From assembly GCA_945871425.1 (NCBI GenBank), contig CAMBVS010000010.1, positions 6,543-70,542 on the forward strand: a DNA stretch of 64,000 nt, given 5' to 3'. How positions within the stretch are numbered: the first letter of the stretch is position 1; every line of letters starts with the position of its first letter. The stretch is from Rhizobium sp. Q54. Lineage in GTDB: Bacteria > Pseudomonadota > Alphaproteobacteria > SHVZ01. The notes beneath the pieces were generated by a model, which worked only from the letters and a program-made list of their open reading frames with translations, did no database searches and was not told the DNA's origin. The position numbers and the translations under genes are program-made. This document shows positions 18,904-60,532 of the stretch, one piece after another.

Positions 18904-19626
18904 ATGGTCTCCGAGCACATCGTCCACGCCTATGACGATCAGCTGAAGCGGCTGAAAGCCGAGATCAGCGAGATGGGCGGGCTCGTCGAGGCTCAGCTCG
19001 GCCAGGCCATCCAGGCGGTCGGCAGCCGCGATGCCGAGCTCGGCCAGCGCTGCGTCGCGTCCGATGCAAGGGTCGACGCGCTCGAACGCCAGATCGATGA
19101 ATCGGTGGTGAAGATGCTGGCGCTCCGCCAGCCGATGGCGAGCGACCTCCGAACCATCCTCTCGGCCCTCAAGATCGCCGCCGACCTCGAGCGGATCGGC
19201 GACTATGCCGCTAATGCCGGCAAGCGCGTGCAGGCGCTGAACCAGTTCCCGCCGGTGCCGAGCGTCGGCGGCGTGGTGCGCTTGGGACAGCTCGCCCGCC
19301 ATGTCGTCAAGGACGTGCTCGACGCCTTCGCTTCCTCCGATACCGCGCGTGCGATCCAGGTCTGGCAGCGGGACGAGGAGGTGGACGCCATGTACACCAG
19401 CCTCTTCCGCGAGCTCCTGACCTACATGATGGAGGACCCGCGCAATATCACGCCCTGCACGCATCTCCTGTTCATCGCCAAGAACCTGGAGCGCATCGGC
19501 GACCATGCGACGAACATCGCCGAGACCATCCACTTCCAGGTCGTCGGCCGCACCATCGCCGAGGCGCGGCCGAAGGGCGACGAAACCAGCTTCGCCGTAG
19601 TCGAGCCCGATGCCCGCCGGTCCTGA
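18904..19626 (+). CDS. phoU: Phosphate signaling complex protein PhoU
   Basis: 240 aa with duplicated PhoU repeats carrying DLERIGDYAANAGK and NLERIGDHATNIAE. Confidence 0.93.
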   Translation: MVSEHIVHAYDDQLKRLKAEISEMGGLVEAQLGQAIQAVGSRDAELGQRCVASDARVDALERQIDESVVKMLALRQPMASDLRTILSALKIAADLERIGDYAANAGKRVQALNQFPPVPSVGGVVRLGQLARHVVKDVLDAFASSDTARAIQVWQRDEEVDAMYTSLFRELLTYMMEDPRNITPCTHLLFIAKNLERIGDHATNIAETIHFQVVGRTIAEARPKGDETSFAVVEPDARRS

Positions 19627-19627
19627 G

Positions 19628-20338
19628 ATGATGAGCCCGCTGGTCCTGGTGGTCGAGGACGAAGGCGCCCTCGTCACCCTCCTTCGCTACAACCTCGAGC
19701 GCGAAGGCTTCCGCGTCGCCGAGGCGCGCGACGGCGAGGAGGCGATCCTGCAGGCGGCCGAGCTCAAGCCCGACCTGATCCTGCTCGACTGGATGATCCC
19801 GCATGTCTCGGGCCTCGAGGTCTGCCGGCGGCTCCGGCGGCGGCCGGACACACGCTCGACACCGATCATCATGCTGACCGCCCGCGCCGAGGAGAGCGAC
19901 AAGATCCGCGGCCTCGATGGCGGCGCCGACGACTACGTGACCAAGCCGTTCAGCCCGACCGAGCTGGTGAGCCGGGTGCGAGCGCTGCTGCGCCGCTCGC
20001 GACCGGCGATGGCGGCCGAGCGGCTGGAATTCGCCGACCTGGTGATGGACCTGGCCGCGCATCGGGTCCGCCGCGGCGGCCGCGACATCCATCTCGGGCC
20101 GACCGAGTTCCGGCTTCTGCGCCACCTGCTCGAGCATCCGGGCCGGGTCTTCTCGCGCGAGCAGCTCCTGAACGCGGTCTGGGGCAGCGAGGTCTATGTC
20201 GAGCCCAGGACGGTCGACGTCCATATCCGGCGCCTCAGGCTCGCGGTCAATGCGCCCGACGAGGCGGACCTGATCCGCACCGTCCGCTCCGTCGGCTACG
20301 CCCTCGACCGGCCGACCAACGGTCACGACGGAGGCTAG
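19628..20338 (+). CDS. phoB: Phosphate regulon response regulator PhoB
   Basis: Receiver domain (LVVEDEGAL...LILLDWMIP...DDYVTKPF) plus an OmpR-type winged helix (TVDVHIRRLR...IRTVRSVGYAL). The ATG at 19628 follows the phoU stop; alternative start at 19610. Confidence 0.93.
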   Translation: MMSPLVLVVEDEGALVTLLRYNLEREGFRVAEARDGEEAILQAAELKPDLILLDWMIPHVSGLEVCRRLRRRPDTRSTPIIMLTARAEESDKIRGLDGGADDYVTKPFSPTELVSRVRALLRRSRPAMAAERLEFADLVMDLAAHRVRRGGRDIHLGPTEFRLLRHLLEHPGRVFSREQLLNAVWGSEVYVEPRTVDVHIRRLRLAVNAPDEADLIRTVRSVGYALDRPTNGHDGG

Positions 20339-21360
20339 GTCGTCGGCGCAGCCTTCGGCGATTGCCCGGCAAGGCGAGCCTGGTCCACGGCCACCGCGAC
20401 GCACTCCAGAAGCCGCTGTTTGACCTCGCCGTCGGGCAGCAGCGGCATCGCTTCGAGAATGCATGCGACATGGTCCAGCTCCAGGACTCCATAGTGCATG
20501 GCGCGCGCGATGTTGGGGATGATGAAGTCGGCCATCGTTCCGGTAAGCCAGGGGTCGTGTTCCCGAGTCTCGAACAGGGACCGGAACGGGATCAGGCCCT
20601 GGCGATGGAGGTGGAGGAAGGTCTGTATCCAGCCGATCGATCCCCCGATGGGACCGTTCATGATTCCGGGCCTGAGCTCCGTCGCCGGTCGGTCGCCGTT
20701 GAATTGACGCTGGCGGAGGGCGGCCTGAGGCACGACGGCGCAACGCGCCTCGTGAAAGGCACGGAGGTAGATCTCGATCTGGGGGTAGGGAAACCCGATC
20801 TGGAGGCTGTAGCTGCTGGGCGCCGCCATCGCCGGAATCCGGCGGAACAGGACGGCGGAGATGAACGCCAGGTTGGAAGCGAGTCCGTGGGCTCGCGCCA
20901 GATCCATGATTCCGCCATAGACGAGACCGCTCTCGATCGCCATCAAACGCTCGAGAATGCACTCCGACATGTCGCGGTTCCAGATCGACCGGTTGAACAG
21001 GAGCAGGTCGGGATCGAGGCTGTCGATGACGGCGATCGCCAGATCGAGGAAGTAGTCCTCGTAGATGTCGTCATCGCCGGCTACGCAGACGAATTTCCCC
21101 CGGGCGAGACGGAAGGCCAGCCAGTAGTTGGAAACGACTCCGTAGTTTCTCTCGTTCCGGCGATAGCGGATCCCGCCGAGCTCGTGGGACAGGCTCCGGA
21201 CCACCTCCTCCGTCCTGTCGGTCGAGGCGTTGTCGCTGATGACGACCTCGACCCGTCCGGGGTGGCGTCGCGTCTGCGGGGCGAGCGAACGAAGCATCTC
21301 CTCCAGGTATTTGTCCCGGTCGAAAGTCGGGATGGCGATCGAAATGAGCGGCTGATCCAT
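20335..21360 (-). CDS. Family 2 glycosyltransferase
   Basis: 341 aa from MDQPLISIAIPTFDRDKYLEEMLRSL. It has the GT-A motifs VVISDNASTD and GDDD. The stop overlaps the phoB stop (CTAG). GC is lower than in neighbouring genes. Confidence 0.85.
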   Translation of the reverse strand: MDQPLISIAIPTFDRDKYLEEMLRSLAPQTRRHPGRVEVVISDNASTDRTEEVVRSLSHELGGIRYRRNERNYGVVSNYWLAFRLARGKFVCVAGDDDIYEDYFLDLAIAVIDSLDPDLLLFNRSIWNRDMSECILERLMAIESGLVYGGIMDLARAHGLASNLAFISAVLFRRIPAMAAPSSYSLQIGFPYPQIEIYLRAFHEARCAVVPQAALRQRQFNGDRPATELRPGIMNGPIGGSIGWIQTFLHLHRQGLIPFRSLFETREHDPWLTGTMADFIIPNIARAMHYGVLELDHVACILEAMPLLPDGEVKQRLLECVAVAVDQARLAGQSPKAAPTT

Positions 21361-21464
21361 CAATCTCGTCCCAGGGAAATGAAGCCGGGGGCACCGTATG
21401 GAAGACGTTTCCTGCATGCAAGGTTGCACATCGAATCGGCGTAGTCGCCGCGGCGTCCTGGTCT

Positions 21465-22424
21465 ATGATCCGGCTCATGTCGGCGCATCCCGGTTCCGAA
21501 TTCCATGGACGTCGCGCGCTGGTCACCGGCGCGACGGGCTATCTCGGCGTCGCCGTGACGCGCCGGCTCGCATCCGCAGGATGGGAGGTCCATGCACTCG
21601 TTCGGCCCGAGTCTTCGCGCGTACGCCTGACCGCCGTCCTTCCTTCCGATCGGTTCCACCCGGTCGGTGTCGAAGCCGGTGCGATCTCGGCCATCGTGGA
21701 TCGTCTGCGGCCGGACGCCATCTTCCATCTGGCCGCGGCCGGCCGTATCGACCATCGCATCGCCGACATCGCGCCGATGATCGAGGCCAACTTCGCGCTG
21801 GGTGCCGTCGTCGCCGAGGCGGCAGCGTCGGCGTCCGCCGCGCTTCTCGTCGCGGGGAGCTACTGGGAGTACGGCGAGGCGGGGACGGGCGGGCCGAACA
21901 GCCTCTACGCCGCGACCAAGCGCTCGCTCGATCCCGTGCTCGCCTACTACGCCGACCGGCGCAGTCTTAAATGGACGAAGCTGGTCCTCCACGACATCTA
22001 CGGGCCGGCCGACTGGCGCCGGCGGCTCGTCACCCAGTTGATCGAAGCTGCCGAGTCAGGCGCGCCGATCGAGCTGACGGAGGGACTGCAGGAGATCGAG
22101 CCCATACATGCGGACGACGCCGCCGGCGCCTTCCTCCGCGCGGCGGAGATGTTGTTGGAAGTCCGGACAGTCACCAATGTCGCCGGCATCGGCGGAGGAG
22201 AGCGGGTGACGTTGCGAGCGCTGGCGGGGCTGATCGAGGATACGACCGGGCGCAGGATCGATGCCCGCTGGGGAAGCCGTCCCTATCCCGAGGGCCAGAT
22301 CTTCCGGCCGGCGGAGCTAACCCGCCTGCCATCCTGGCAACCACGAAAGACGTTGAAGGGCGGCCTCGAGACGGTGGTCGCGAGTCTGCGCCAAGCTCAG
22401 CGCGGCGCCCGGCAGAAGGCGTGA
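21465..22424 (+). CDS. Extended SDR NAD(P)-dependent epimerase/reductase (candidate CDP-3,6-dideoxyhexose 4-keto reductase)
   Basis: GATGYLG Rossmann motif and catalytic YAATK (YxxxK). The specific role is inferred only from ddhABC-like neighbours. Confidence 0.7.
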
Positions 22425-23719
22425 AGCCGTTCGATCACGAAGTCGATCATGGCCTCCGTCAGGCCGGGATAGACCCCTAGCCAGAACAGGCGCTCGGCGA
22501 CGATGTCGGTATTCGTGAGACGACCGACGACCCGATGCGGAATCCCGACATAGGCCGGTTGCCGCAGCAGGTTTCCGCCGAACAGCAGCCGCGTGCCGAT
22601 GTTCTGCTCGTTGAGCCAGCGCATCAGGTCCTCGCGCGGGAACGGCGCATCGGCGCGCAGCAGCAGCGGGAATCCGAACCAGCTGGGATCGCTCCTCGCC
22701 GTCGCTTCCGGCATCTCGAAGATGTCGGCGAGATCCTTCACGCCTTCGCGCAGGCGATGGAAGTTGCGCCGACGCGCGGCGATGAAGTCCGGAAGCTTCT
22801 CAAGCTGAGCCAATCCGATCGCAGCCTGCAGATCGGTCGCCTTCAGGTTATAGCCGATATGAGAATAGATATACTTGTGGTCATACCCATAAGGCAGATC
22901 GCCGAGCTGCCAGGCAAAGCGCTTGCCGCAGGTATTGTCCTTACCGGGCGCACAGTAGCAGTCACGCCCCCAGTCCCTCAGCGACTCGACCGCCCGCATC
23001 ACCCGCGTGTTCGCGGACAGCACCGCGCCGCCCTCGCCCATGGTGATGTGGTGCGCGGGGTAGAAGCTCACCGTCGCCACGTCGCCGAAGGTGCCGACGG
23101 CGCGCCCGTCATAGGTGGCACCGAGTGCGTCGCAGCAGTCCTCGACCAGCCAGAGGTCGCGCTTCTTCGCGATCTCCGCCACCTCGGCGACGGCGAAGGG
23201 ATTGCCGAGCGGATGCGCGATCATGATGGCGCGCGTGCGCGGGCCGATCGCTTCCTCGAGCGCCGCCAGGTCGACGCAGTGGGCCGGCAGCGTCACGTCG
23301 ACGAAGACCGGCACCAGGCCGTTCTGCAGGATCGGATTGACCGTCGTCGGGAATCCGGCCGCGACGGTGACGACCTCGTCGCCCGGAACCAGGCGCCGCT
23401 CGCCGACCAGCGGCGAGGTGAGCGCGGTGAGCGCCAGCAGGTTCGCAGAAGAGCCGGAGTTGCAGAGACGACAGCGGCGGCCGCCGAACCACTTGCCGAG
23501 TTCGTCCTCGAAGGAATCGGCGAAGTGCCCATGGGTCAGCCAGAACTCGAGCGATGCCTCGACCAGGCGCTTGACCTCGTCCGCATCGAAGTGCCGGCCT
23601 GCCACCGGCACGTGGGTCGTGCCGGGTACGAACGGCTTCGCCGGGAACGCCTCGGCGACATACTCCTCGACCAGGGACAGGATTTGCGCCTGCAGCTCGC
23701 GGGCACGGCCGGAACTCAC
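22397..23719 (-). CDS. ddhC: CDP-6-deoxy-L-threo-D-glycero-4-hexulose-3-dehydrase (E1, RfbH/DdhC-like)
   Basis: Near-colinear with my memory of Salmonella RfbH: [42 protein letters not shown] (His in place of the PLP Lys) and [19 protein letters not shown] (Fe-S Cys). The GTG at 23719 overlaps the upstream stop (GTGA) and gives 440 aa. Confidence 0.9.
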
Positions 23720-24690
23720 GCGAGATACTCGCGATACCACCGAACGGTGCGTTCGACGCCGCCGACGAGATCGTGCCGCTCAGACCAGCCAAGCTCGTCG
23801 CGCATCCGCCTGGCCGAGAGGTGCTGGTGGCGGATCTCCAACTTGGCGGTACCGCGGACATCGGGTGCGAGGTCGACGCCCGCCGCCTTCGCCAGGGCCG
23901 TGACGATCTCCAGCACCGTCCGCGTCTCCTCGGTCGAGACGTTGAAGGCGCTGCCGCGGCGCGACGGATCGCCGGCGAGCCACTCCGCGAGCCGGACATA
24001 GGCATCGGCCGCGTCCTCGACATAGAGGTAGTCCCGGGTCAGGGTCCCGTCCGAGCGGATCACCGGCCGCTCGCCCCGGAGAAGCGAGCGGATCGTGCCG
24101 GGAATGAGCCGGTTCCAGTTGAGGTCGCCGCCGCCGTAGAGATTGGCGCAGCGGGTGACGAGGGCGGGCAGGCCGAAGGACGTGACGTAGCTCTGCGCCA
24201 CGGTCTCGGCCGCGACCTTGCTTGCATCGTAGGGATGGCGCCCGAGAAGCGGCATGTCCTCGGTGTAGGGAAGGACCGGCTGGTCGCCATAGGCCTTGTC
24301 GGACGAGGCGAGGACGATCGCGCGCAGACCACCGATCTGCCGGCAGGCCTCGAACAGCGTCCAGGTCCCGCCGACGTTCACATCGAAGGTCTCCGAGGGG
24401 TTGCCGGCAGCGACGCCGACTACGGTCTGCGCCGCCAGATGCATCACCACGTCGCATTCGTATTCGCCGAGCGCACGCTTTAACAGTTCCCCGTCGCGGA
24501 CATCGCCGTGGACGACCACGCAGCGGTCCATCAGGGTGCCGAAATGCGTCCGCGCCGCCGGGAGACCGTCGCGCACCAGGCAGACCGGCCGCGCGCCATC
24601 GGCGAGGAGCCGTGCAACGACCCAGCCGCCGAGGAGGCCGGTCGCGCCGGTCACCAGCACCGGCCGGTCGCGCCAAAAGGGCGTCACCAT
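23716..24690 (-). CDS. ddhB: CDP-glucose 4,6-dehydratase-like SDR (RfbG/DdhB-like)
   Basis: [20 protein letters not shown]-terminus and catalytic YDASK. Positioned between ddhA-like and ddhC-like genes. The start (24690, 24687 or 24699) overlaps the ddhA stop. Confidence 0.72.
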
Positions 24691-25460
24691 GTCCTCCACG
24701 GCGCCCGGCCCTCGGACCAGAGGGCGTTCAGCGCGAGATAGTCGCGATAGGTGTCGAGCGTGTGGAAGAAGCCCTCGTGGCGATAGACCATCAGCTGCCC
24801 GTCGCGGGCCAGCCGCTCCAGCGGCTCGCGCTCGAGCACACAGGACGGATCGGCGGAAAGATAGTCCAGAACGCCACGTTCGAAGACGAGGAAGCCGGCG
24901 TTCACCAGGCCGTCGATCCGCGGCTTCTCCCGGAACCGCATCGCCCGATCCTCGCCGTCGACCTCGATCACCCCGAAGCGCGACTCCGGGTGGATGGCCG
25001 TCATCGTCGCGAGACGGCCATGCGACTTGTGAAAGCGAAGGAGGGCTGAGACGTCGACATCGGAGACGCCGTCACCGTAAGTCACCATGAACGGGCCTGC
25101 GGGCAGATAGCGCTCGACCCGCTTGATCCGCGATCCGGTCATGCTCATCGGTCCAGTCTCGGCGAGGGTGACCTTGATGTCGTCCTCTGCGAGCGGGCTA
25201 TGGAATGTCAATTCGTCGGGACGCCCCAGCGACAGCGTGAAGTCCCGGGACATGGCTCGATAGTCGAGGACATAGCTCTTGATCTGCTCGCCCTTGTAGC
25301 CGAGGCACAGCACGAAGTTGGTGAGACCGTGCACTTGGAAATGCTTCATGATGTGCCAGAGGATCGGGTGCTCGCCGATCTGCACCAGAGGCTTGGGGAT
25401 CGACTCCGTGTGCTCACGCAACCGCGTGCCCTGGCCGCCGCAAAGAATCACCACGGCCAT
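24684..25460 (-). CDS. ddhA: Glucose-1-phosphate cytidylyltransferase (RfbF/DdhA-like)
   Basis: From [14 protein letters not shown] it gives 258 aa. Strong similarity to RfbF throughout ([33 protein letters not shown]...NAGF, TLDTYRD...LW..G.APW.TW). An upstream ATG at 25514 would add 18 aa. Confidence 0.9.
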
Positions 25461-25550
25461 CTCGTGTTGCGCCACCGCCTCGCCCCCTCTTCCGGCCCGA
25501 CCTTCGTGCTTCATTAGTACAGACGACGCCGGATTGCACCGACTAGAAAG

Positions 25551-27704
25551 CTAGACGACGATCGGCCCGAACAAGGCAGCCGCTGGCTTCTCTCCGGCGA
25601 CCGGGCCGACTCCCGCCATCGGCGCTCCATCGGCATAGTCGACGCTGCGATGCGTCTTCTTGATCGGGATGCGCGAGAAGACCTTGCCCAACGCCTGGCG
25701 GCTGCGGCCGTGCCGGTTCAGCTGGTCCTGGAAGAACTTCTTCTGCCAGGGCTGGTGGAAGAAGCGGATCCGCGTCGGCCGGATCTCCGTCGGCGCCTCT
25801 TCGAAGGCGGCGTGATCGAGCGCGACGAAGTCGTAGTCGAAATCGGCGACCGTCTCGCTGTCGAGATCGACGAAGGAGCGCTTCTTCAGAAGCGAAAAAC
25901 GCTTGAGGTCGGCGAAGTAGGCAGAGTCCAGAAGATCCCTCCGCCCGGTCCGCTCGCTGACGAAATCGGCGAACAGGTCGAAGGCGACGTCGTGCAGGTC
26001 CTCCATGCAGGTGAGGTAGACCTGCGCCTGGGTGTTGAACAGGACGTTGTTGCCGCGCTCGCCGGCAAGGTAGCTCTCCAGCACCGAGCGATCGGACTTG
26101 ATGCCGTCGGCCAGCGCCTCGTAGGTCGGCGCCAGCTCGCCTTCGGTCGCAGCGAGAAAGCTCCCATACATCGATGCGAGCGGGCCCGGGAAATCGCCGC
26201 GACGGGCGTGCATGTAGAGCAGCCAGTCGGAGATCTTGAATCCGAGCCCACGGATGAAGCGGGTGAGCTCGAGAAAGATGTTGTCGTTGTAGAACAGCGT
26301 GACCGTGAGCGCGAAGCTGCGGCATTCGAGGTAGTCCTCGAAGGGAAGCGTCGCGTTCTCGACGCACACTTCCTCGATCTCGACGCAATGCAGCGTCTCG
26401 CCGGCAAAGGGATAGAAGCCGAACGACCGCGGCACCACCCGGTAGCGCGTCTTCATCTGGAAGCGCTCGCGCTCGCGCTGGGTCGCGAGCTCGGAACCGT
26501 CGAGGATCATCAGCGTGAACAGACGGATCTGGTTGAAGTCGGCGTCGATCAGGCGGCACACGGTGTCGATGTGCTTCTTCCGCGAATCCCCGGGTAGCGC
26601 CAGGATGACCTCCGAGTAGGTGTTGGCGTCGGTCGGGCTCAGGCGACTGGAGACGGCGATGATCTGCTCGTAGGAGATGTTGCTGCGCTTGATGTTCTTC
26701 AGCACCTCGTCGTCGAGCGACTGCACCGAGGCCGAGAAGCGGAGCGATCCCTCCAGGAGATCGGAGCACTCGATGATACGAGCCTGCTGGTTCTTCCCGG
26801 TCGAGACCTGAAGGTGATGCGGGTAATCGTATTTGACCTTGGTGTCGGCGATCACCCGGCAGAACTCGACATCCTCCTTGAACATGCCGAAATTGGTGTC
26901 GGCGAGGGTCAGGTACTTCCCGGAATAACGCTCGGCGATGTAGGTCAGCTCCGAGCGGAGCCGCCCGACGCTCGCCTTGTTGACCTTGCTCCGCGCGCCG
27001 ATGCCGTCGACGCAGAAAGCGCAGGTGAACGGGCAGCCGCGATTGCTCTCCATCAGGGGTACGAGCGAAGCATCGGCGAGGAAGTCGTCGAGGTAGCCCT
27101 TAAGATAGGGCGACGGCGTCGCGTCGAGGTCTGCGATGCGGGGCGAGTCGTCGAAGCCGTCGCGGCGGACGCCGTTGGTCTTGACCAGCTCGCCGTCGAC
27201 CAGGGCATGGACGCCGTTGATGCCCGCCCGCTTCACCGCCTCGATCGAGCGGCTCTCGATCCAGGCCTCGCCGACCTCGAGGAACGGCCGCTCCCCCTCG
27301 CCCACCAGGTAAACGTCGACGGCAGGATGGTCGCGGAGCCAAGCTTCCTGGCGCGGCGACTCGAGCGGGTAGTTCGGGCCGCCGAAGACGACCAGGGTTT
27401 CGGGCGCGTGGCGCTTGATGGCAGCGGCGATCGTGTAGGAGAGGTCGAGGTTCCACATGTAGTTGGAGAACCCGACGATCGCCGGCCGCCGCGCCTGGAA
27501 GGCGGCATCGAGCGTATGCGGGTACTTGAAGAGCTCGATCTCGACCGGCCGCTCGGAATGAGCAAGGAAATAGCTCTTGATGCAGCCGACCGGATAGGGA
27601 ACCAGCTCGGCGTTCACGCCCTGTGCGGTATGCGTAAGATCGCAGAGGTAGATCAGATCCATTGGCGTTCCGGTAGGTGACAGGCGCTCGGTAGCTCCGT
27701 CCAT
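25551..27704 (-). CDS. B12-binding-domain radical SAM protein (class B-like), 717 aa
   Basis: N-terminal Rossmann-like cobalamin-binding region (VGFSNYMWNLDLSYTIAAAIKRHAPETLVVFGGPNYP), then the CX3CX2C cluster motif SNRGCPFTCAFCVDG. A long (~300 aa) unassigned C-terminal region follows. Alternative start at 27662. Confidence 0.85.
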   Translation of the reverse strand: MDGATERLSPTGTPMDLIYLCDLTHTAQGVNAELVPYPVGCIKSYFLAHSERPVEIELFKYPHTLDAAFQARRPAIVGFSNYMWNLDLSYTIAAAIKRHAPETLVVFGGPNYPLESPRQEAWLRDHPAVDVYLVGEGERPFLEVGEAWIESRSIEAVKRAGINGVHALVDGELVKTNGVRRDGFDDSPRIADLDATPSPYLKGYLDDFLADASLVPLMESNRGCPFTCAFCVDGIGARSKVNKASVGRLRSELTYIAERYSGKYLTLADTNFGMFKEDVEFCRVIADTKVKYDYPHHLQVSTGKNQQARIIECSDLLEGSLRFSASVQSLDDEVLKNIKRSNISYEQIIAVSSRLSPTDANTYSEVILALPGDSRKKHIDTVCRLIDADFNQIRLFTLMILDGSELATQRERERFQMKTRYRVVPRSFGFYPFAGETLHCVEIEEVCVENATLPFEDYLECRSFALTVTLFYNDNIFLELTRFIRGLGFKISDWLLYMHARRGDFPGPLASMYGSFLAATEGELAPTYEALADGIKSDRSVLESYLAGERGNNVLFNTQAQVYLTCMEDLHDVAFDLFADFVSERTGRRDLLDSAYFADLKRFSLLKKRSFVDLDSETVADFDYDFVALDHAAFEEAPTEIRPTRIRFFHQPWQKKFFQDQLNRHGRSRQALGKVFSRIPIKKTHRSVDYADGAPMAGVGPVAGEKPAAALFGPIVV

Positions 27705-27800: not shown

Positions 27801-28517
27801 TTACTTGGCGTCGTGAAAGATGATCCCGAGAGCGAATCTCAAGCCCCGGCGGATGCGGCTGACGCCGTGACGGAGCATGACCCGGTGTACGGCCCGGCTC
27901 CCCTGCCGCGGACGATCGCGGACGGCGAAGATCACCGCCTCCCCTTGGCGCAGCCGCACCACCTCCGCCCGCGACTGCTGGCGCGGGCGCTGCTCGACCA
28001 GCACGAACTCCCCGCCCTCGAAGTCCCTCTCCGGATCGCTGAGCAGGATGGTCGCCTGGAGCGGGAAGACGAGGTCGCCGTAGAGATCCTGGTGCAGGCA
28101 GTTGTAGCCCTCGGCCTGGTAGCGGAGCAGCAGCGGCGTCGGCCGCGTCTGTCCCGCCAGATGACAGCGTCCAAGGTAGTCCTCGAGAGCGCCCGGATAC
28201 GAGATCGTGCTGCCCAGAGACTCGGCCCAGGCGTTCGCCACCGGCGCGAGGCGCCGGTACAGTAACCCCCTGAGCTGGGCGATCTCCTCCGGCAGAGGGT
28301 AGGCGAAGTACTGGTATTCGCCTCGGCCGTAGGCGTGGCGCTCCATGACCACGCGGCTGCGGAAGCGCTCCTCCTGGTCGTACCAGTCGGCGATGCGCAG
28401 GCAGGCCTCGGCGTCGAGCAGAGGCCCGGTGGTCGCATGACCGCGGGCCGAAAGCTGGTTGGCAATCTCCTGCCAACCGAGATCGGAGATACGTCTGGCG
28501 AGCTTGGAGGCGGTCAT
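27801..28517 (-). CDS. 2OG-Fe(II) oxygenase (proline-hydroxylase-like; resembles the family Pfam calls Oxygenase-NA, from memory)
   Basis: 238 aa. HxD (CLHQDLYG), distal His (MLRHGVS) and Arg (RIRRG) are arranged as in 2OG oxygenases. Confidence 0.65.
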   Translation of the reverse strand: MTASKLARRISDLGWQEIANQLSARGHATTGPLLDAEACLRIADWYDQEERFRSRVVMERHAYGRGEYQYFAYPLPEEIAQLRGLLYRRLAPVANAWAESLGSTISYPGALEDYLGRCHLAGQTRPTPLLLRYQAEGYNCLHQDLYGDLVFPLQATILLSDPERDFEGGEFVLVEQRPRQQSRAEVVRLRQGEAVIFAVRDRPRQGSRAVHRVMLRHGVSRIRRGLRFALGIIFHDAK

Positions 28518-28571
28518 GGGTCATGCTCGGCGATCGGCTTGGCGGCGCCTATCCGGATCGTGCGCCGATGC

Positions 28572-29240
28572 TCAGAAATCCAGGTCGGCGTAGTGCTTGG
28601 GCGGCGGCGCGCCCGGGATGTGGTCGGCGAGGATCGGGCGGAAGGAGGGCCGCGACTTCATCCGCGCATACCATTCCTTCGCTTCCGGATGATCCTCCCA
28701 GGGAACGTCGCCGGTGTAGTCGAGGGCAGAGAGATGCGCCGCCGCCGCGACGTCCGCCAGCGTCAGGCGATCGCCGGCGAGCCAGGTCCGCCGCTCGGCG
28801 AGGAAGGCCATGTAGTCGAGATGGACGTGGAGCGCCTTCATGCCGTCGCGGATCGCCTGGCTGTTTGGCGTGCCGAGACCGAGGAAGCGCTTCATCATCT
28901 TCTCCTCGATGAGCGCGCGCGAAACCTCTCGGTCGAACTTGTCGTCGAACCAGGCGACCAGCCGGCGCACCTCGGCGCGCTCGGTGGCGTCGCCCAGGAT
29001 CAGCGGGCGCTCGGGATAGACCTCCTCAAGATACTCGCAGATCGGTCCGGCATGGACGATCCGGGCGCCCGAGTCCTCGACCAGCACCGGGACCTCGCCG
29101 GCCGGGTTCATGTCCATGAACTCGGGCCGACGTTCCCAGGTCTTCTCGACCTTCATCTCGAACGGGAGGTTCTTCTCGGCGAGCGCGAGGCGGACCTTGC
29201 GCGACCCGGCCGAGAGCCAGAGATGGTAGAGCGTGCGCAT
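28572..29240 (-). CDS. Glutathione S-transferase
   Basis: 222 aa with the thioredoxin-like N-domain (LYHLWLSAGSRKVRLALAEK...NPAGEVPVL) and a helical C-domain. Confidence 0.85.
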   Translation of the reverse strand: MRTLYHLWLSAGSRKVRLALAEKNLPFEMKVEKTWERRPEFMDMNPAGEVPVLVEDSGARIVHAGPICEYLEEVYPERPLILGDATERAEVRRLVAWFDDKFDREVSRALIEEKMMKRFLGLGTPNSQAIRDGMKALHVHLDYMAFLAERRTWLAGDRLTLADVAAAAHLSALDYTGDVPWEDHPEAKEWYARMKSRPSFRPILADHIPGAPPPKHYADLDF

Positions 29241-59567: not shown

Positions 59568-60386
59568 TCAGCGGAAGAGGCCGAGGATCGACTGCGGCTG
59601 GCGGTTGGCGATGTTGAGGGTCAGATTCGAAAGCTGCCCGCGCGCGGCTTCGGCCTGGCTGCGGACGGCGGTCTGGCCGAGATCGGCGTCGACGATAGCG
59701 CCTAGCCCTTCGGCCGTCGCGTCGTTCAGGATCGACAGGAACTGCGACTGGTTGTTCAGCGTGCGGGTGTCGGCGCCGACGTTGCCGAGCACGCTGGCGA
59801 GGCCGGCCTGGGTCTGCTGGAGCGCCGAGAAGGCCTGCGCCGCCGCCGCCGGGGTCGCCAGCGACTGGGCGCCGAGATTGGCCGTCTGGGTCGCGAATCC
59901 GGAGGCTGACTGCACCGTCAGCGTCGTGCCGTCGATGTTGGCCAGGACGTTGAGCGAGGTCGATCCGGCCGAGAGCAGGTTGCGGCCGTTGAAGCTGGCG
60001 TTCTGGATGGTCTGGTTGAGCTGGGCGACCTGGGCCTGGAAGTCGGCGTTGATGATCGCCTGCTGCTCGGATGTATTGCCGGGGTTCTGCCCGGCGATCA
60101 CCGTCGCGTTCAGGTTGGCGAGCTGCTCGGAGGCCGCGGTCGCCGCCGCATTGGTGACGGCCAGCACGCCGCGGGCGTTGTCGATGCCCTGCTCGACCGC
60201 GCCGAACGACTTGAGGTCGCCCTGCAGGATCTGGCCGATGGTGAAGGCGGAGGCATTGTCGACCGCGTTGTTGACGCGCTTGCCGGTCGCCTGCTGGCGG
60301 CCGAGCACGTCGCGATTGCGTTCGATCGCGTTGGCGTTTTGAAGGGCGGTCGCGGCGCCGGAATTGGTGAGGATCGAGTTGGCCAT
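59568..60386 (-). CDS. Flagellin (short, 272 aa alphaproteobacterial type)
   Basis: From MANSILTNSGAATALQNANAI. It has a conserved N-terminal D0/D1 (GKRVNNAVDNASAFTIGQ) and a C-terminus (AEAARGQLSNLTLNIANRQPQSILGLFR). The 33-codon upstream extension in the track ORF is rejected. Confidence 0.9.
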   Translation of the reverse strand: MANSILTNSGAATALQNANAIERNRDVLGRQQATGKRVNNAVDNASAFTIGQILQGDLKSFGAVEQGIDNARGVLAVTNAAATAASEQLANLNATVIAGQNPGNTSEQQAIINADFQAQVAQLNQTIQNASFNGRNLLSAGSTSLNVLANIDGTTLTVQSASGFATQTANLGAQSLATPAAAAQAFSALQQTQAGLASVLGNVGADTRTLNNQSQFLSILNDATAEGLGAIVDADLGQTAVRSQAEAARGQLSNLTLNIANRQPQSILGLFR

Positions 60387-60532
60387 GATGGGAATCCCAT
60401 TTTTCCGTTTCTCGGGGGATAAATAAAAAGATAGCACCGAATGCCCGCCCCGGCAACGACTATTACGCCGGCTTTTCGCGTACAACTCTCTGAGATCTCA
60501 AAAGAATTCGACTCTGACGGAAGCGTGTGAAG

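What the first reader, a model, noticed from the sequence alone, without database searches (positions are those of the whole stretch)
25551..27704. 717-aa B12-binding radical SAM enzyme as first gene of a CDP-3,6-dideoxyhexose operon
Seen: a large ORF with a cobalamin-binding-type N-domain and the CX3CX2C motif (SNRGCPFTCAFCVDG) lies immediately upstream of, and on the same strand as, ddhA-like (24684-25460), ddhB-like and ddhC-like genes. Those three have overlapping stop/start codons. Established: class B (B12-dependent) radical SAM enzymes typically methylate or rearrange unactivated carbons (for example GenK, Fom3, the hopanoid methylases). Branched or C-methyl deoxysugars are normally made by conventional SAM C-methyltransferases. 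Inference: the operon may produce a C-alkylated or otherwise radical-modified CDP-dideoxyhexose. I am not aware of such chemistry being described for the ddh pathway. The ~300-aa C-terminal region is also unassigned.
Basis: partly seen in the sequence, partly recalled or inferred. Interest (0 to 1): 0.7.

Follow-up and report, generated by a model that had tools for sequence, protein, structure and literature searches.

The report
B12 radical SAM enzyme in deoxysugar operon
A real, uncharacterised vitamin-B12-dependent radical enzyme, built like known carbon-methylating enzymes, leads a small operon for a rare cytidine-activated deoxysugar, so it probably makes a sugar modification not yet described in bacterial surface glycans.

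Summary
ORF 25551-27704 (-) is a genuine gene; its likely start is Met15 at 27662, giving 703 aa. It has a B12-binding domain and a CPFTCAFC cluster motif. It lies 90 nt upstream of translationally coupled ddhA, ddhB and ddhC.

The "unassigned" C-terminus is now assigned. An AlphaFold model (pLDDT 89.7) matches TokK and CysS over its full length (TM 0.71-0.76). Both are B12-dependent iterative C-methylases.

The protein defines a distinct ~700-aa family:
- 208 50%-identity clusters carry its C-terminal domain (E<=1e-10).
- It falls far below the KedN5 NCBIfam cut-off.
- It keeps TokK's lower-face Trp, but an invariant Asp/Glu replaces TokK's functionally important Trp215.

Orthologues at 49-94% identity sit next to ddhC-type genes in four or five separate lineages, with shuffled gene order. 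Other orthologues sit in different sugar clusters. A 33-38% identity clade sits in NeuB/CMP-sugar clusters.

No ddhD (E3) was found in the window by the motif scan and the partial Pfam annotation. No paper characterising the family was found.

Best reading: a new B12-radical SAM sugar C-methylase acting on the adjacent CDP-deoxyhexose pathway. The chemistry, the carbon attacked and the substrate stage are all inferred. This is a new variant of a known kind, of moderate-to-good interest.

The parts
25551..27662 (-). B12-dependent radical SAM enzyme, 703 aa from Met15. The longest ORF extends to 27704 and gives 717 aa.
27168..27662 (-). N-terminal Rossmann cobalamin-binding domain. It includes the lower-face motif GFSNYMWN at 27450-27473, the equivalent of TokK A70-x-S-x-Y-x-W76.
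   Evidence: PF02310; alignment to TokK; motif checked and conserved across the family; model secondary structure.
26463..27080 (-). Radical SAM core. It carries CPFTCAFC (27012-27035), followed by V-D-G where Asp233 replaces TokK Trp215. It also carries D269-T-N271 at the position of TokK's D-A-N ('GGE') motif.
25635..26453 (-). Family-specific C-terminal domain: a beta-hairpin region plus a helical cap. It is structurally equivalent to the TokK/CysS substrate-binding domain.
   Evidence: Full-length Foldseek match. The domain-only HMMER search finds it at about residues 435-680 in nearly all full-length hits, which are mostly 620-720 aa.
24684..25460 (-). ddhA-like glucose-1-phosphate cytidylyltransferase. 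The longest ORF starts at 25514.
   Evidence: TIGR02623 292.5 bits against a 300.25 cut-off; PF00483.
23716..24690 (-). ddhB-like NDP-hexose 4,6-dehydratase (extended SDR). Its start overlaps the ddhA stop (ATGGTGA).
   Evidence: The best NCBIfam hit is CDP-glucose 4,6-dehydratase, 184.5 bits and below the 278 cut-off. Junction. The sequence has SSDK and YDASK motifs.
22397..23719 (-). ddhC/rfbH, the E1-type PMP-dependent CDP-4-keto-6-deoxyglucose 3-dehydrase. Its GTG start overlaps the ddhB stop (GTGA).
   Evidence: NF011936 694.6 bits against 423. The sequence shows C-X57-C-X1-C-X7-C and His in the PLP-Lys position. Junction.
21465..22424 (+). Extended SDR, convergent with ddhC. It is the candidate C4-ketoreductase of the pathway.
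   Evidence: PF01370; no specific NCBIfam family; GATGYLG and YAATK motifs. It is conserved in the same position in L081 (76% id) and L091 (54% id).
20335..21429 (-). GT2 glycosyltransferase, the only transferase of the island. Met24 at 21360 is a possible alternative start (inference from the sequence).
   Evidence: PF00535. The close relative L081 has a different GT2 (33% id) placed upstream of the rSAM gene.

Best explanation
The gene encodes a cobalamin-dependent (class B) radical SAM enzyme with the three-domain TokK/CysS architecture. It is the first gene of a four-gene transcription unit, rSAM-ddhA-ddhB-ddhC.

That unit sits in a 7.4-kb sugar island that also holds an SDR and one GT2. 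The island lies among housekeeping genes of an uncultured alphaproteobacterium.

The most likely function is radical C-methylation, possibly repeated, of an unactivated carbon of the 6-deoxy or 3,6-dideoxyhexose made by the neighbouring enzymes. The expected steps are:
1. The reduced [4Fe-4S] cluster cleaves SAM to give a 5'-deoxyadenosyl radical.
2. That radical abstracts a hydrogen atom from the sugar.
3. The substrate radical takes a methyl group from methylcobalamin.
4. A second SAM re-methylates the cofactor.

The GT2 then transfers the modified sugar to a glycan.

Shown here: the fold, the cofactor motifs, the operon anatomy and the recurrent linkage to sugar-nucleotide genes.

Inferred: methyl transfer as the chemistry, the carbon attacked, and whether the substrate is the CDP-sugar or the transferred sugar.
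For: - Domains and motifs.
- Nearest curated family is the KedN5 methylcobalamin-dependent C-methyltransferases (5e-53). The next best family scores only 56.6 bits (1.6e-15).
- Profile search of PDB: TokK 1e-58 and CysS 7e-56.
- AF2 model with pLDDT 89.7 and pTM 0.89. It matches TokK (E 4e-36, TM 0.71/0.76 over 689 columns) and CysS (TM 0.67/0.75). The non-radical or non-methylating TsrM and OxsB reach only TM <=0.47 normalised to the query (TsrM up to 0.56 normalised to the target).
- TokK's lower-face Trp motif and its DxN motif are conserved.
- Operon anatomy: 90-nt gap, no terminator, coupled ddhABC.
- Linkage: 17 of 22 loci with >=42% id orthologues and >=4 kb of flank carry sugar-nucleotide markers, 11 a DdhA-like gene and 10 a DegT/DdhC-like gene.
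- ddhC-type genes at >=51% id lie beside orthologues of 94, 82, 61, 57 and 49% id, in different gene orders. These lineages are scattered over the family tree.
- Class B radical SAM enzymes already known to C-methylate sugars or a cytidylylated substrate: GenK, GenD1, MoeK5 and Fom3 (PMC9204698).
Against: - No biochemical data exist for any member, and none was found in the literature searches.
- The score is far below the KedN5 family cut-off (180 against 700), and identity to TokK and CysS is only about 20-23%.
- TokK Trp215 stacks between the cluster and cobalamin, and mutating it markedly reduces product formation (PMC9204698). Here it is an invariant Asp, and Asp/Glu in nearly all of the ~700-aa family sampled. 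TsrM, a non-radical methylase, has Glu at the analogous position.
- Several orthologues are not next to ddh genes.
- TokK and CysS both act on pantetheinylated substrates rather than nucleotide sugars (descriptions).
Confidence: 0.5

Rival explanations
1. The enzyme carries out radical chemistry on the sugar nucleotide other than methyl transfer. Candidates are epimerisation, dehydration or deoxygenation, ring contraction or C-C rearrangement. B12 would then play a different role, as it does in OxsB, BchE or HpnJ.
For: - The Cys-loop +2 position, a recognised hotspot for SAM-cobalamin communication, holds Asp/Glu instead of TokK's Trp.
- Class B enzymes include non-methylases (PMC9204698).
- The pathway lacks ddhD, so its redox or deoxygenation logic may be non-canonical.
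Against: - Sequence and fold are much closer to the methylases TokK, CysS and KedN5 than to OxsB (TM 0.46) or BchE (35 bits).
- The lower-face Trp, which keeps cobalamin penta-coordinate in TokK, is invariant.
Confidence: 0.17
2. It is a methylase, but it acts after glycosyl transfer or on a substituent rather than on the CDP-sugar. One example would be extending an O-methyl or acyl group on the glycan, as CysS and KedN5 extend a methoxy group.
For: - The closest relatives CysS and KedN5 elongate O-methyl groups, and MoeK5 acts on a lipid-linked sugar (own knowledge for KedN5 and MoeK5).
- Some orthologue loci hold only glycosyltransferases and methyltransferases, with no nucleotide-sugar pathway within 10 kb (L084).
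- A GT2 accompanies the gene in several loci.
Against: - The window island has no O-methyltransferase or acyltransferase.
- The tightest and most recurrent partners are the sugar-nucleotide enzymes, not the transferases. The GT2 is swapped between close relatives while rSAM-ddhABC-SDR stays together.
Confidence: 0.15
3. The adjacency is incidental and the enzyme works on a non-sugar substrate such as a lipid, cofactor or peptide.
For: One orthologue (L088, 54% id) has no sugar genes within 10 kb. Loci L111 and L115-117 show only weak or unclear sugar context.
Against: - 17 of 22 orthologue loci carry sugar-nucleotide markers.
- The linkage persists from 94% down to 49% identity, and in distant clades, despite gene-order shuffling.
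- There is no terminator before ddhA.
Confidence: 0.07
4. The radical SAM protein functionally replaces the missing DdhD/E3 reductase. It would deliver electrons, or a radical step, for the C-3 deoxygenation catalysed by DdhC.
For: - It occupies the position before ddhA that ddhD holds in the Salmonella rfb operon (own knowledge).
- No plant-type 2Fe-2S reductase motif occurs in the 64-kb window.
- No ferredoxin-reductase-type gene appears within 10 kb in the three ddhC-linked loci that have called genes with Pfam annotation (L081, the P0007 contig and L087).
- DdhC keeps its Fe-S motif.
Against: - Nothing in the TokK-type fold suggests a reductase role.
- Related 3-dehydrases such as SpnQ work with general cellular reductases (own knowledge).
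- The family also occurs where no ddhC is present.
Confidence: 0.03

Closest known systems
TokK / ThnK (carbapenem C6 side-chain B12-radical SAM methylases; PDB 7kdx, 7kdy)
   Same: Same three-domain architecture over the full length (TM 0.71/0.76). CX3CX2C, the lower-face (A/G)xSxYxW motif and DxN at the GGE position are all present.
   Different: Only about 22% identity. Trp215 is replaced by Asp. The C-terminal domain is not detectable by sequence. The genomic context is sugar-nucleotide genes rather than a beta-lactam cluster, and TokK's substrate is pantetheinylated.
CysS / KedN5 family (iterative methylation of a methoxy group; PDB 9n1b; NCBIfam NF033712)
   Same: Best curated family hit (180 bits, 5e-53). 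Profile E-value 7e-56 and fold TM 0.67/0.75.
   Different: Far below the family cut-off of 700 bits. CysS keeps the C-x-W motif. Its substrates are aromatic methoxy groups on carrier-bound acids.
GenK, GenD1, Fms7, MoeK5 (class B radical SAM C-methylases of aminoglycoside or moenomycin sugars)
   Same: They set the precedent that B12-radical SAM enzymes C-methylate sugar carbons (PMC9204698).
   Different: They belong to other clusters of the class B similarity network. They act on pseudo-oligosaccharides or lipid-linked sugars in antibiotic pathways, not in CDP-hexose or surface-glycan operons. They were not compared by sequence here.
Fom3 (fosfomycin)
   Same: A class B radical SAM methylase whose substrate is cytidylylated, cytidylyl-2-hydroxyethylphosphonate (reference list of PMC9204698). 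This parallels the cytidine-nucleotide context seen here (CDP-hexose and CMP-sugar clusters).
   Different: It acts on a phosphonate rather than a sugar, and it sits in a different network cluster.
Canonical ddh/asc CDP-3,6-dideoxyhexose pathway and its known C-branching route (YerE/YerF, yersiniose)
   Same: ddhA, ddhB and ddhC plus an SDR reductase are present. DdhC carries the E1 Fe-S motif and the active-site His.
   Different: There is no ddhD/E3. The known C-branching of 3,6-dideoxy-4-ketohexose uses a ThDP enzyme (own knowledge), and other branched sugars use conventional SAM C-methyltransferases, not a radical SAM enzyme.

Membership tests
Class B (cobalamin-dependent) radical SAM enzymes | N-terminal Rossmann-type B12-binding domain | tested here: met
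   PF02310 scores 33.9 bits against a 32.1 cut-off. The fold is confirmed by the AF2 model and Foldseek.
Class B (cobalamin-dependent) radical SAM enzymes | Radical SAM core with a CX3CX2C [4Fe-4S] motif | tested here: met
   PF04055 scores 32.9 against 29.5. C224-x3-C228-x2-C231 is invariant in 55 homologues.
Class B (cobalamin-dependent) radical SAM enzymes | Actually binds cobalamin and an Fe-S cluster and cleaves SAM | not testable with these tools
   This needs purified protein, UV-vis or EPR spectroscopy and activity assays.
TokK/ThnK/CysS/KedN5 iterative C-methylase clade | Full three-domain fold, including the C-terminal substrate cap | tested here: met
   Foldseek gives TokK E 4e-36 with TM 0.71/0.76 over 689 columns, and CysS TM 0.67/0.75.
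TokK/ThnK/CysS/KedN5 iterative C-methylase clade | Downstream Cbl motif A/G-x-S-x-Y-x-W, the Trp that occludes the lower axial face | tested here: met
   G78-F-S-N-Y-M-W84 aligns with TokK A70...W76. Trp is invariant.
TokK/ThnK/CysS/KedN5 iterative C-methylase clade | D-A-N at the 'GGE' position | tested here: met
   D269-T-N271 aligns to TokK D250-A-N252. D and N are invariant.
TokK/ThnK/CysS/KedN5 iterative C-methylase clade | Cys-X3-Cys-X2-Cys-X-Trp, the Trp215 stacked between the cluster and cobalamin | tested here: not met
   The sequence here is C-V-D-G. Across the ~700-aa family it is nearly always C-x-[D/E]-G, apart from one sub-group reading E-K-G, whereas shorter paralogues, TokK and CysS have C-x-W.
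TokK/ThnK/CysS/KedN5 iterative C-methylase clade | NCBIfam NF033712 (KedN5 family) trusted cut-off | tested here: not met
   180.3 bits against a 700 cut-off, and the match covers only residues 67-412.
CDP-3,6-dideoxyhexose (ddh/asc) pathway | Glucose-1-phosphate cytidylyltransferase (DdhA) | tested here: inconclusive
   TIGR02623 scores 292.5 bits, just under the 300.25 cut-off. The match is full-length.
CDP-3,6-dideoxyhexose (ddh/asc) pathway | CDP-glucose 4,6-dehydratase (DdhB) | tested here: inconclusive
   TIGR02622 is the best hit but scores 184.5 against 278, with dTDP-glucose dehydratase at 163.8. The S-D-K and YxxxK motifs are present (their significance is from own knowledge).
CDP-3,6-dideoxyhexose (ddh/asc) pathway | E1 3-dehydrase (DdhC/RfbH) with a [2Fe-2S] motif and active-site His | tested here: met
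   NF011936 scores 694.6 against 423. C-X57-C-X1-C-X7-C and SFYPAHH are in the sequence (motif definition from own knowledge).
CDP-3,6-dideoxyhexose (ddh/asc) pathway | E3 reductase (DdhD/AscD) encoded with the pathway | tested here: not met
   No C-x4-C-x2-C...C ferredoxin motif occurs in any frame of the window. No Fer2/FNR domains appear in the roughly 34 window ORFs that were scanned; about 20 more distant ORFs were not scanned. None appears in the Pfam-annotated neighbours of L081, P0007 or L087. It could still lie elsewhere in the genome.
CDP-3,6-dideoxyhexose (ddh/asc) pathway | C4-ketoreductase that gives the final CDP-dideoxyhexose | tested here: inconclusive
   An extended SDR with YxxxK lies at 21465-22424, but it matches no specific family.

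The most novel reading that the evidence does not exclude
The ~700-aa family is an uncharacterised clade of TokK-fold B12-radical SAM enzymes that alkylate cytidine-nucleotide-activated deoxysugars. Here the substrate would be a CDP-6-deoxy or CDP-3,6-dideoxyhexose. In the 33-38% identity marine clade it would be a precursor of a CMP-nonulosonic acid. The products would be C-methyl-branched or chain-extended sugars not yet described in bacterial surface glycans. The Asp/Glu that replaces TokK Trp215 would mark a different way of coupling the Fe-S cluster, SAM and cobalamin.
Probability: 0.3. Interest if true: 0.75.

Novelty: new variant of a known kind. Interest (0 to 1): 0.55.

Why it matters
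C-methyl and branched deoxysugars in glycans and antibiotics are known to arise from conventional SAM C-methyltransferases or ThDP enzymes acting on keto-sugar nucleotides. A B12-radical SAM enzyme wired into a primary CDP-hexose operon would add a new way of decorating nucleotide sugars at unactivated carbons.

It would also predict new sugar structures in environmental alphaproteobacteria, in marine bacteria and perhaps in Leptospira, where a 36% identity relative sits near ddhA and ddhC.

For enzymologists it offers a natural variant of the TokK scaffold in which the catalytically important Trp215 is an acidic residue. For genome annotators it would give a defined family, and a function, to proteins now labelled only 'B12-binding domain-containing radical SAM protein' or mislabelled YgiQ or MiaB.

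Tried and rejected
It returned only 26-38% identity relatives, so it did not give the orthologue neighbourhoods directly. The metagenome scan and exact-protein look-ups filled that gap.
- Seven accepted literature searches combined radical SAM or B12 with O-antigen, CDP-glucose, dideoxyhexose, nonulosonic acid, nucleotide sugar or branched-chain sugar. One further query was rejected for syntax. None found a paper on this family.
- A search for a ddhD/E3-type ferredoxin motif in all six frames found nothing.
- Promoter and terminator scans were uninformative, at or below shuffle expectation.
- Pfam annotation of the lower-GC region at 48.8-62 kb tested for a second glycan cluster. It holds only housekeeping genes.
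- I considered filing the protein as a KedN5/CysS family member and rejected it. The score is far below the cut-off and the C-x-W feature is absent.
- I considered that the C-terminal region might be a separate fused enzyme and rejected it. It matches the TokK/CysS cap and is found in this architecture in the full-length hits.
Mapping conserved Arg and Lys residues onto a putative nucleotide-binding pocket could therefore not be done.
Full report
**1. The observation**

ORF 25551-27704 on the minus strand is present and encodes 717 aa from the first ATG. Its third-position GC of 0.88 is typical of real genes in this 68% GC window. Pfam finds a B12-binding domain (33.9 bits, cut-off 32.1) and a Radical_SAM domain (32.9 bits, cut-off 29.5). 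The quoted motif is real, and CPFTCAFC lies at 27012-27035.

All 16 aligned homologues begin at or a few residues upstream of the position of Met15. The exact 703-aa product that starts at 27662 is the one held in public gene calls. The gene is therefore most likely 25551-27662.

Downstream on the same strand are three genes:
- a glucose-1-phosphate cytidylyltransferase (TIGR02623, 292.5 bits against 300.25);
- a 4,6-dehydratase-type SDR whose best family is CDP-glucose 4,6-dehydratase (184.5 against 278);
- a clear RfbH/DdhC (694.6 against 423).

The junctions read ATGGTGA and GTGA, so ddhA, ddhB and ddhC are translationally coupled. The radical SAM gene ends 90 nt before the ddhA ATG, and no terminator-like hairpin lies on that strand.

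**2. The island**

The sugar genes form a compact 7.4-kb block. It holds a GT2 (20335-21429, -), an extended SDR (21465-22424, +, convergent with ddhC), ddhC, ddhB, ddhA and the radical SAM gene.

On one side lie phoU-phoB. On the other lie a 2OG-oxygenase-like gene and fzlA. The block's GC content is 0.64-0.66, against 0.68-0.70 in the flanks. The other parts of the window that were annotated are housekeeping.

DdhC carries the C-X57-C-X1-C-X7-C spacing and a His in the position of the PLP lysine (sequence). By my knowledge of AscC/E1, these are the marks of the Fe-S-containing 3-dehydrase.

No DdhD/E3-type reductase is encoded nearby. No plant-type ferredoxin motif occurs in any frame of the window, and no Fer2/FNR domains appear among the ORFs that were scanned.

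**3. What the protein is**

NCBIfam places it nearest the KedN5 family of methylcobalamin-dependent radical SAM C-methyltransferases. The score is 180 bits (5e-53), far below the 700-bit cut-off, and the match covers only residues 67-412. Every other family scores 57 bits or less.

A profile of 17 homologues finds two solved structures: TokK (1e-58) and CysS (7e-56).

An AlphaFold2 model built from 55 homologues is confident (pLDDT 89.7, pTM 0.89). Foldseek aligns it over its full length:
- TokK: E 4e-36, TM 0.71/0.76, 689 columns.
- CysS: TM 0.67/0.75.
- TsrM, OxsB, MgmA and AprD4: only the N-terminal two domains match, with query-normalised TM <=0.47.

The "unassigned" C-terminal ~300 residues are therefore the counterpart of the TokK/CysS substrate-binding cap.

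By sequence, that domain is family-specific. A search of 1.84 billion representatives with residues 455-717 finds 407 clusters (208 at E<=1e-10). In nearly all full-length hits, mostly 620-720 aa, the domain sits at about residues 435-680.

**4. Motifs**

I compared the features highlighted for TokK in PMC9204698.
- Conserved: the lower-face motif (G78-F-S-N-Y-M-W84, against TokK A70-x-S-x-Y-x-W76).
- Conserved: D-x-N at the GGE position (D269-T-N271).
- Not conserved: TokK Trp215 (Cys-X3-Cys-X2-Cys-X-Trp). It is sandwiched between the cluster and cobalamin, and mutating it markedly affects product formation. Here it is Asp233.

A census of all fetched loci shows:
- Nearly all of the ~700-aa family has C-x-[D/E]-G, the exception being one sub-group that reads E-K-G.
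- Shorter paralogues with a different C-terminus keep C-D-W-G.

The review notes that TsrM has Glu at the analogous position, bridging SAM and cobalamin. This is a genuine family signature. It is also the main reason not to transfer TokK's mechanism without reservation.

**5. Genome neighbourhoods**

Full-length homologues are numerous. The best 120 90%-identity clusters are all >=43% identical over >=88% of the query. They come from Alphaproteobacteria, Legionellales, Dehalococcoidia and many marine samples, and none has an informative name.

Loci where a DdhC-type gene lies nearby:

| Locus | rSAM identity | Gene content and order |
|---|---|---|
| L081-83 | 94% | GT2-rSAM-ddhA-ddhB-ddhC, convergent SDR |
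| L091 | 82% | ddhA-ddhB-ddhC-rSAM |
| L093/L094 and the P0007 contig | 61-62% | GT2-ddhC-SDR-rSAM-ddhA-ddhB-RmlC-like-SDR |
| L087 | 57% | ddhA-SDR-SDR-Ugd-ddhC-rSAM |
| L105 | 49% | rSAM-GT2-ddhC-SDR-ddhA-ddhB-RmlC-like-SDR |
| L018, L043 (a Leptospira MAG) | 34-36% | DdhC at 52-57% identity nearby |

Loci where no DdhC-type gene was found:
- L085 and L096 have DdhA-like and 4,6-dehydratase genes.
- L084, L089/L101 and L086 lie in other glycan clusters. These hold glycosyltransferases, methyltransferases, ThDP E1/transketolase pairs, a GHMP kinase and NUDIX.
- L106 lies beside NeuB and a CBS-nucleotidyltransferase.
- L088 has no sugar genes within 10 kb.

Among loci with >=42% identity and >=4 kb of flank, 17 of 22 carry sugar-nucleotide markers. 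Eleven carry a DdhA-like gene and 10 a DegT/DdhC-like gene. These counts include some near-duplicate loci.

On a rough NJ tree, the ddh-linked lineages are interleaved with unlinked ones.

The 33-38% identity full-length clade is mostly marine. It sits instead beside adh_short, CTP_transf_3 cytidylyltransferases, SIS, NeuB and PhyH genes, which is the make-up of nonulosonic-acid-type clusters.

The family is therefore sugar-pathway-linked and recurrently ddh-linked, but not ddh-specific. Cytidine-nucleotide sugars and 4,6-dehydratase-derived deoxysugars are the recurring theme. I had no random-locus control, so the enrichment is judged against general expectation only.

**6. Mechanism**

The best-supported reading is a B12-dependent radical C-methylase that tailors the deoxysugar made by the adjacent enzymes. 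The expected cycle is:
1. reductive SAM cleavage;
2. hydrogen abstraction from an sp3 carbon of the sugar;
3. methyl transfer from methylcobalamin;
4. re-methylation of the cofactor by a second SAM.

The GT2 then transfers the sugar. Between the window and its 94% identity relative, the rSAM-ddhABC module stays at 92-95% identity and the SDR at 76%. The GT2, by contrast, is a different gene (33% id) in a different place. That pattern fits a module that makes an activated sugar plus a swappable transferase.

Precedents from PMC9204698:
- GenK, GenD1, Fms7 and MoeK5 methylate sugar carbons.
- Fom3 takes a cytidylylated substrate.

Which carbon is attacked is open. C3, the C6 methyl group or a carbinol carbon are all possible, as is repeated methylation as in TokK and CysS. 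Rival explanations are scored separately: non-methylating radical chemistry, action after transfer or on a substituent, incidental adjacency, and replacement of E3.

**7. Novelty and verdict**

No paper on this family or on radical SAM chemistry in the ddh pathway was found in the searchable library.

The protein is not a member of any curated family. It is a new, coherent family within the TokK/CysS-like branch of class B radical SAM enzymes. It has a new genomic context and a diagnostic active-site substitution. I rate it a new variant of a known kind.

Its interpretation is partly supported:
- The link to sugar biosynthesis and the methylase-like nature are backed by evidence.
- Exclusivity to ddh is not supported.
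- The chemistry remains untested.

Interest is 0.55.

Noticed in passing
L118-L169 (metagenome loci), e.g. L129:2547-3329, L136:3525-4238, L154:760-1647, L160:3887-4498: A 33-38% identity clade of the same ~700-aa family lies not with ddh genes but beside adh_short SDRs, two kinds of CTP_transf_3 cytidylyltransferase, SIS-domain, NeuB and PhyH-dioxygenase genes. This is the make-up of nonulosonic-acid (CMP-sugar) clusters. It suggests a family-wide link to cytidine-activated sugars.
   Followed up: partly
window 20335-21429 compared with L081:8832-9917: The island's GT2 is not conserved. The 94%-identical relative has a different GT2 (33% id over 120 aa) placed upstream of the rSAM gene, while rSAM-ddhABC stays at 92-95% identity and the SDR at 76%. 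The island is mosaic.
   Followed up: partly
window 1-64000; L081, L087, P0007 contig: No ddhD/E3-type [2Fe-2S]-flavin reductase is encoded in the window (motif scan plus partial annotation) or within 10 kb of the three ddhC-linked orthologue loci with Pfam-annotated genes. DdhC nevertheless keeps its Fe-S motif. The rSAM gene sits where ddhD sits in enterobacterial rfb operons.
   Followed up: partly
window 20335-27704: The sugar island has lower GC (0.64-0.66) than its flanks (0.68-0.70). It is wedged between phoU-phoB (18904-20338) and an Oxygenase-NA/2OG gene plus fzlA (27801-29240). This is consistent with horizontal acquisition.
   Followed up: no
L086:8259-10291; L089:4713-8523; L101:7606-8604; L065:5748-6866: Pairs of ThDP-dependent E1_dh and Transket_pyr genes, often with a GHMP kinase and NUDIX, recur beside family members (3 of the 22 >=42% identity loci with adequate flank, and 14 more distant loci). 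Such pairs are typical of two-carbon branching or chain extension of sugars.
   Followed up: no
P0007 contig (1850-3544 and 4302-6122 in locus coordinates); L014:13136-14767: A second, shorter B12-binding radical SAM gene (544-564 aa) co-occurs with the family in at least 14 loci. In one contig a LIC12162-family protein (PF27859) is also present.
   Followed up: no
window 59568-60485 (-): This is a flagellin-like gene (Flagellin_N) about 30 kb from the island. It was not examined for any link to glycosylation.
   Followed up: no
one search hit table: Public annotations of family members are uninformative or wrong: 'hypothetical protein', 'YgiQ (UPF0313 family)' and 'tRNA A37 methylthiotransferase MiaB'.
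   Followed up: no
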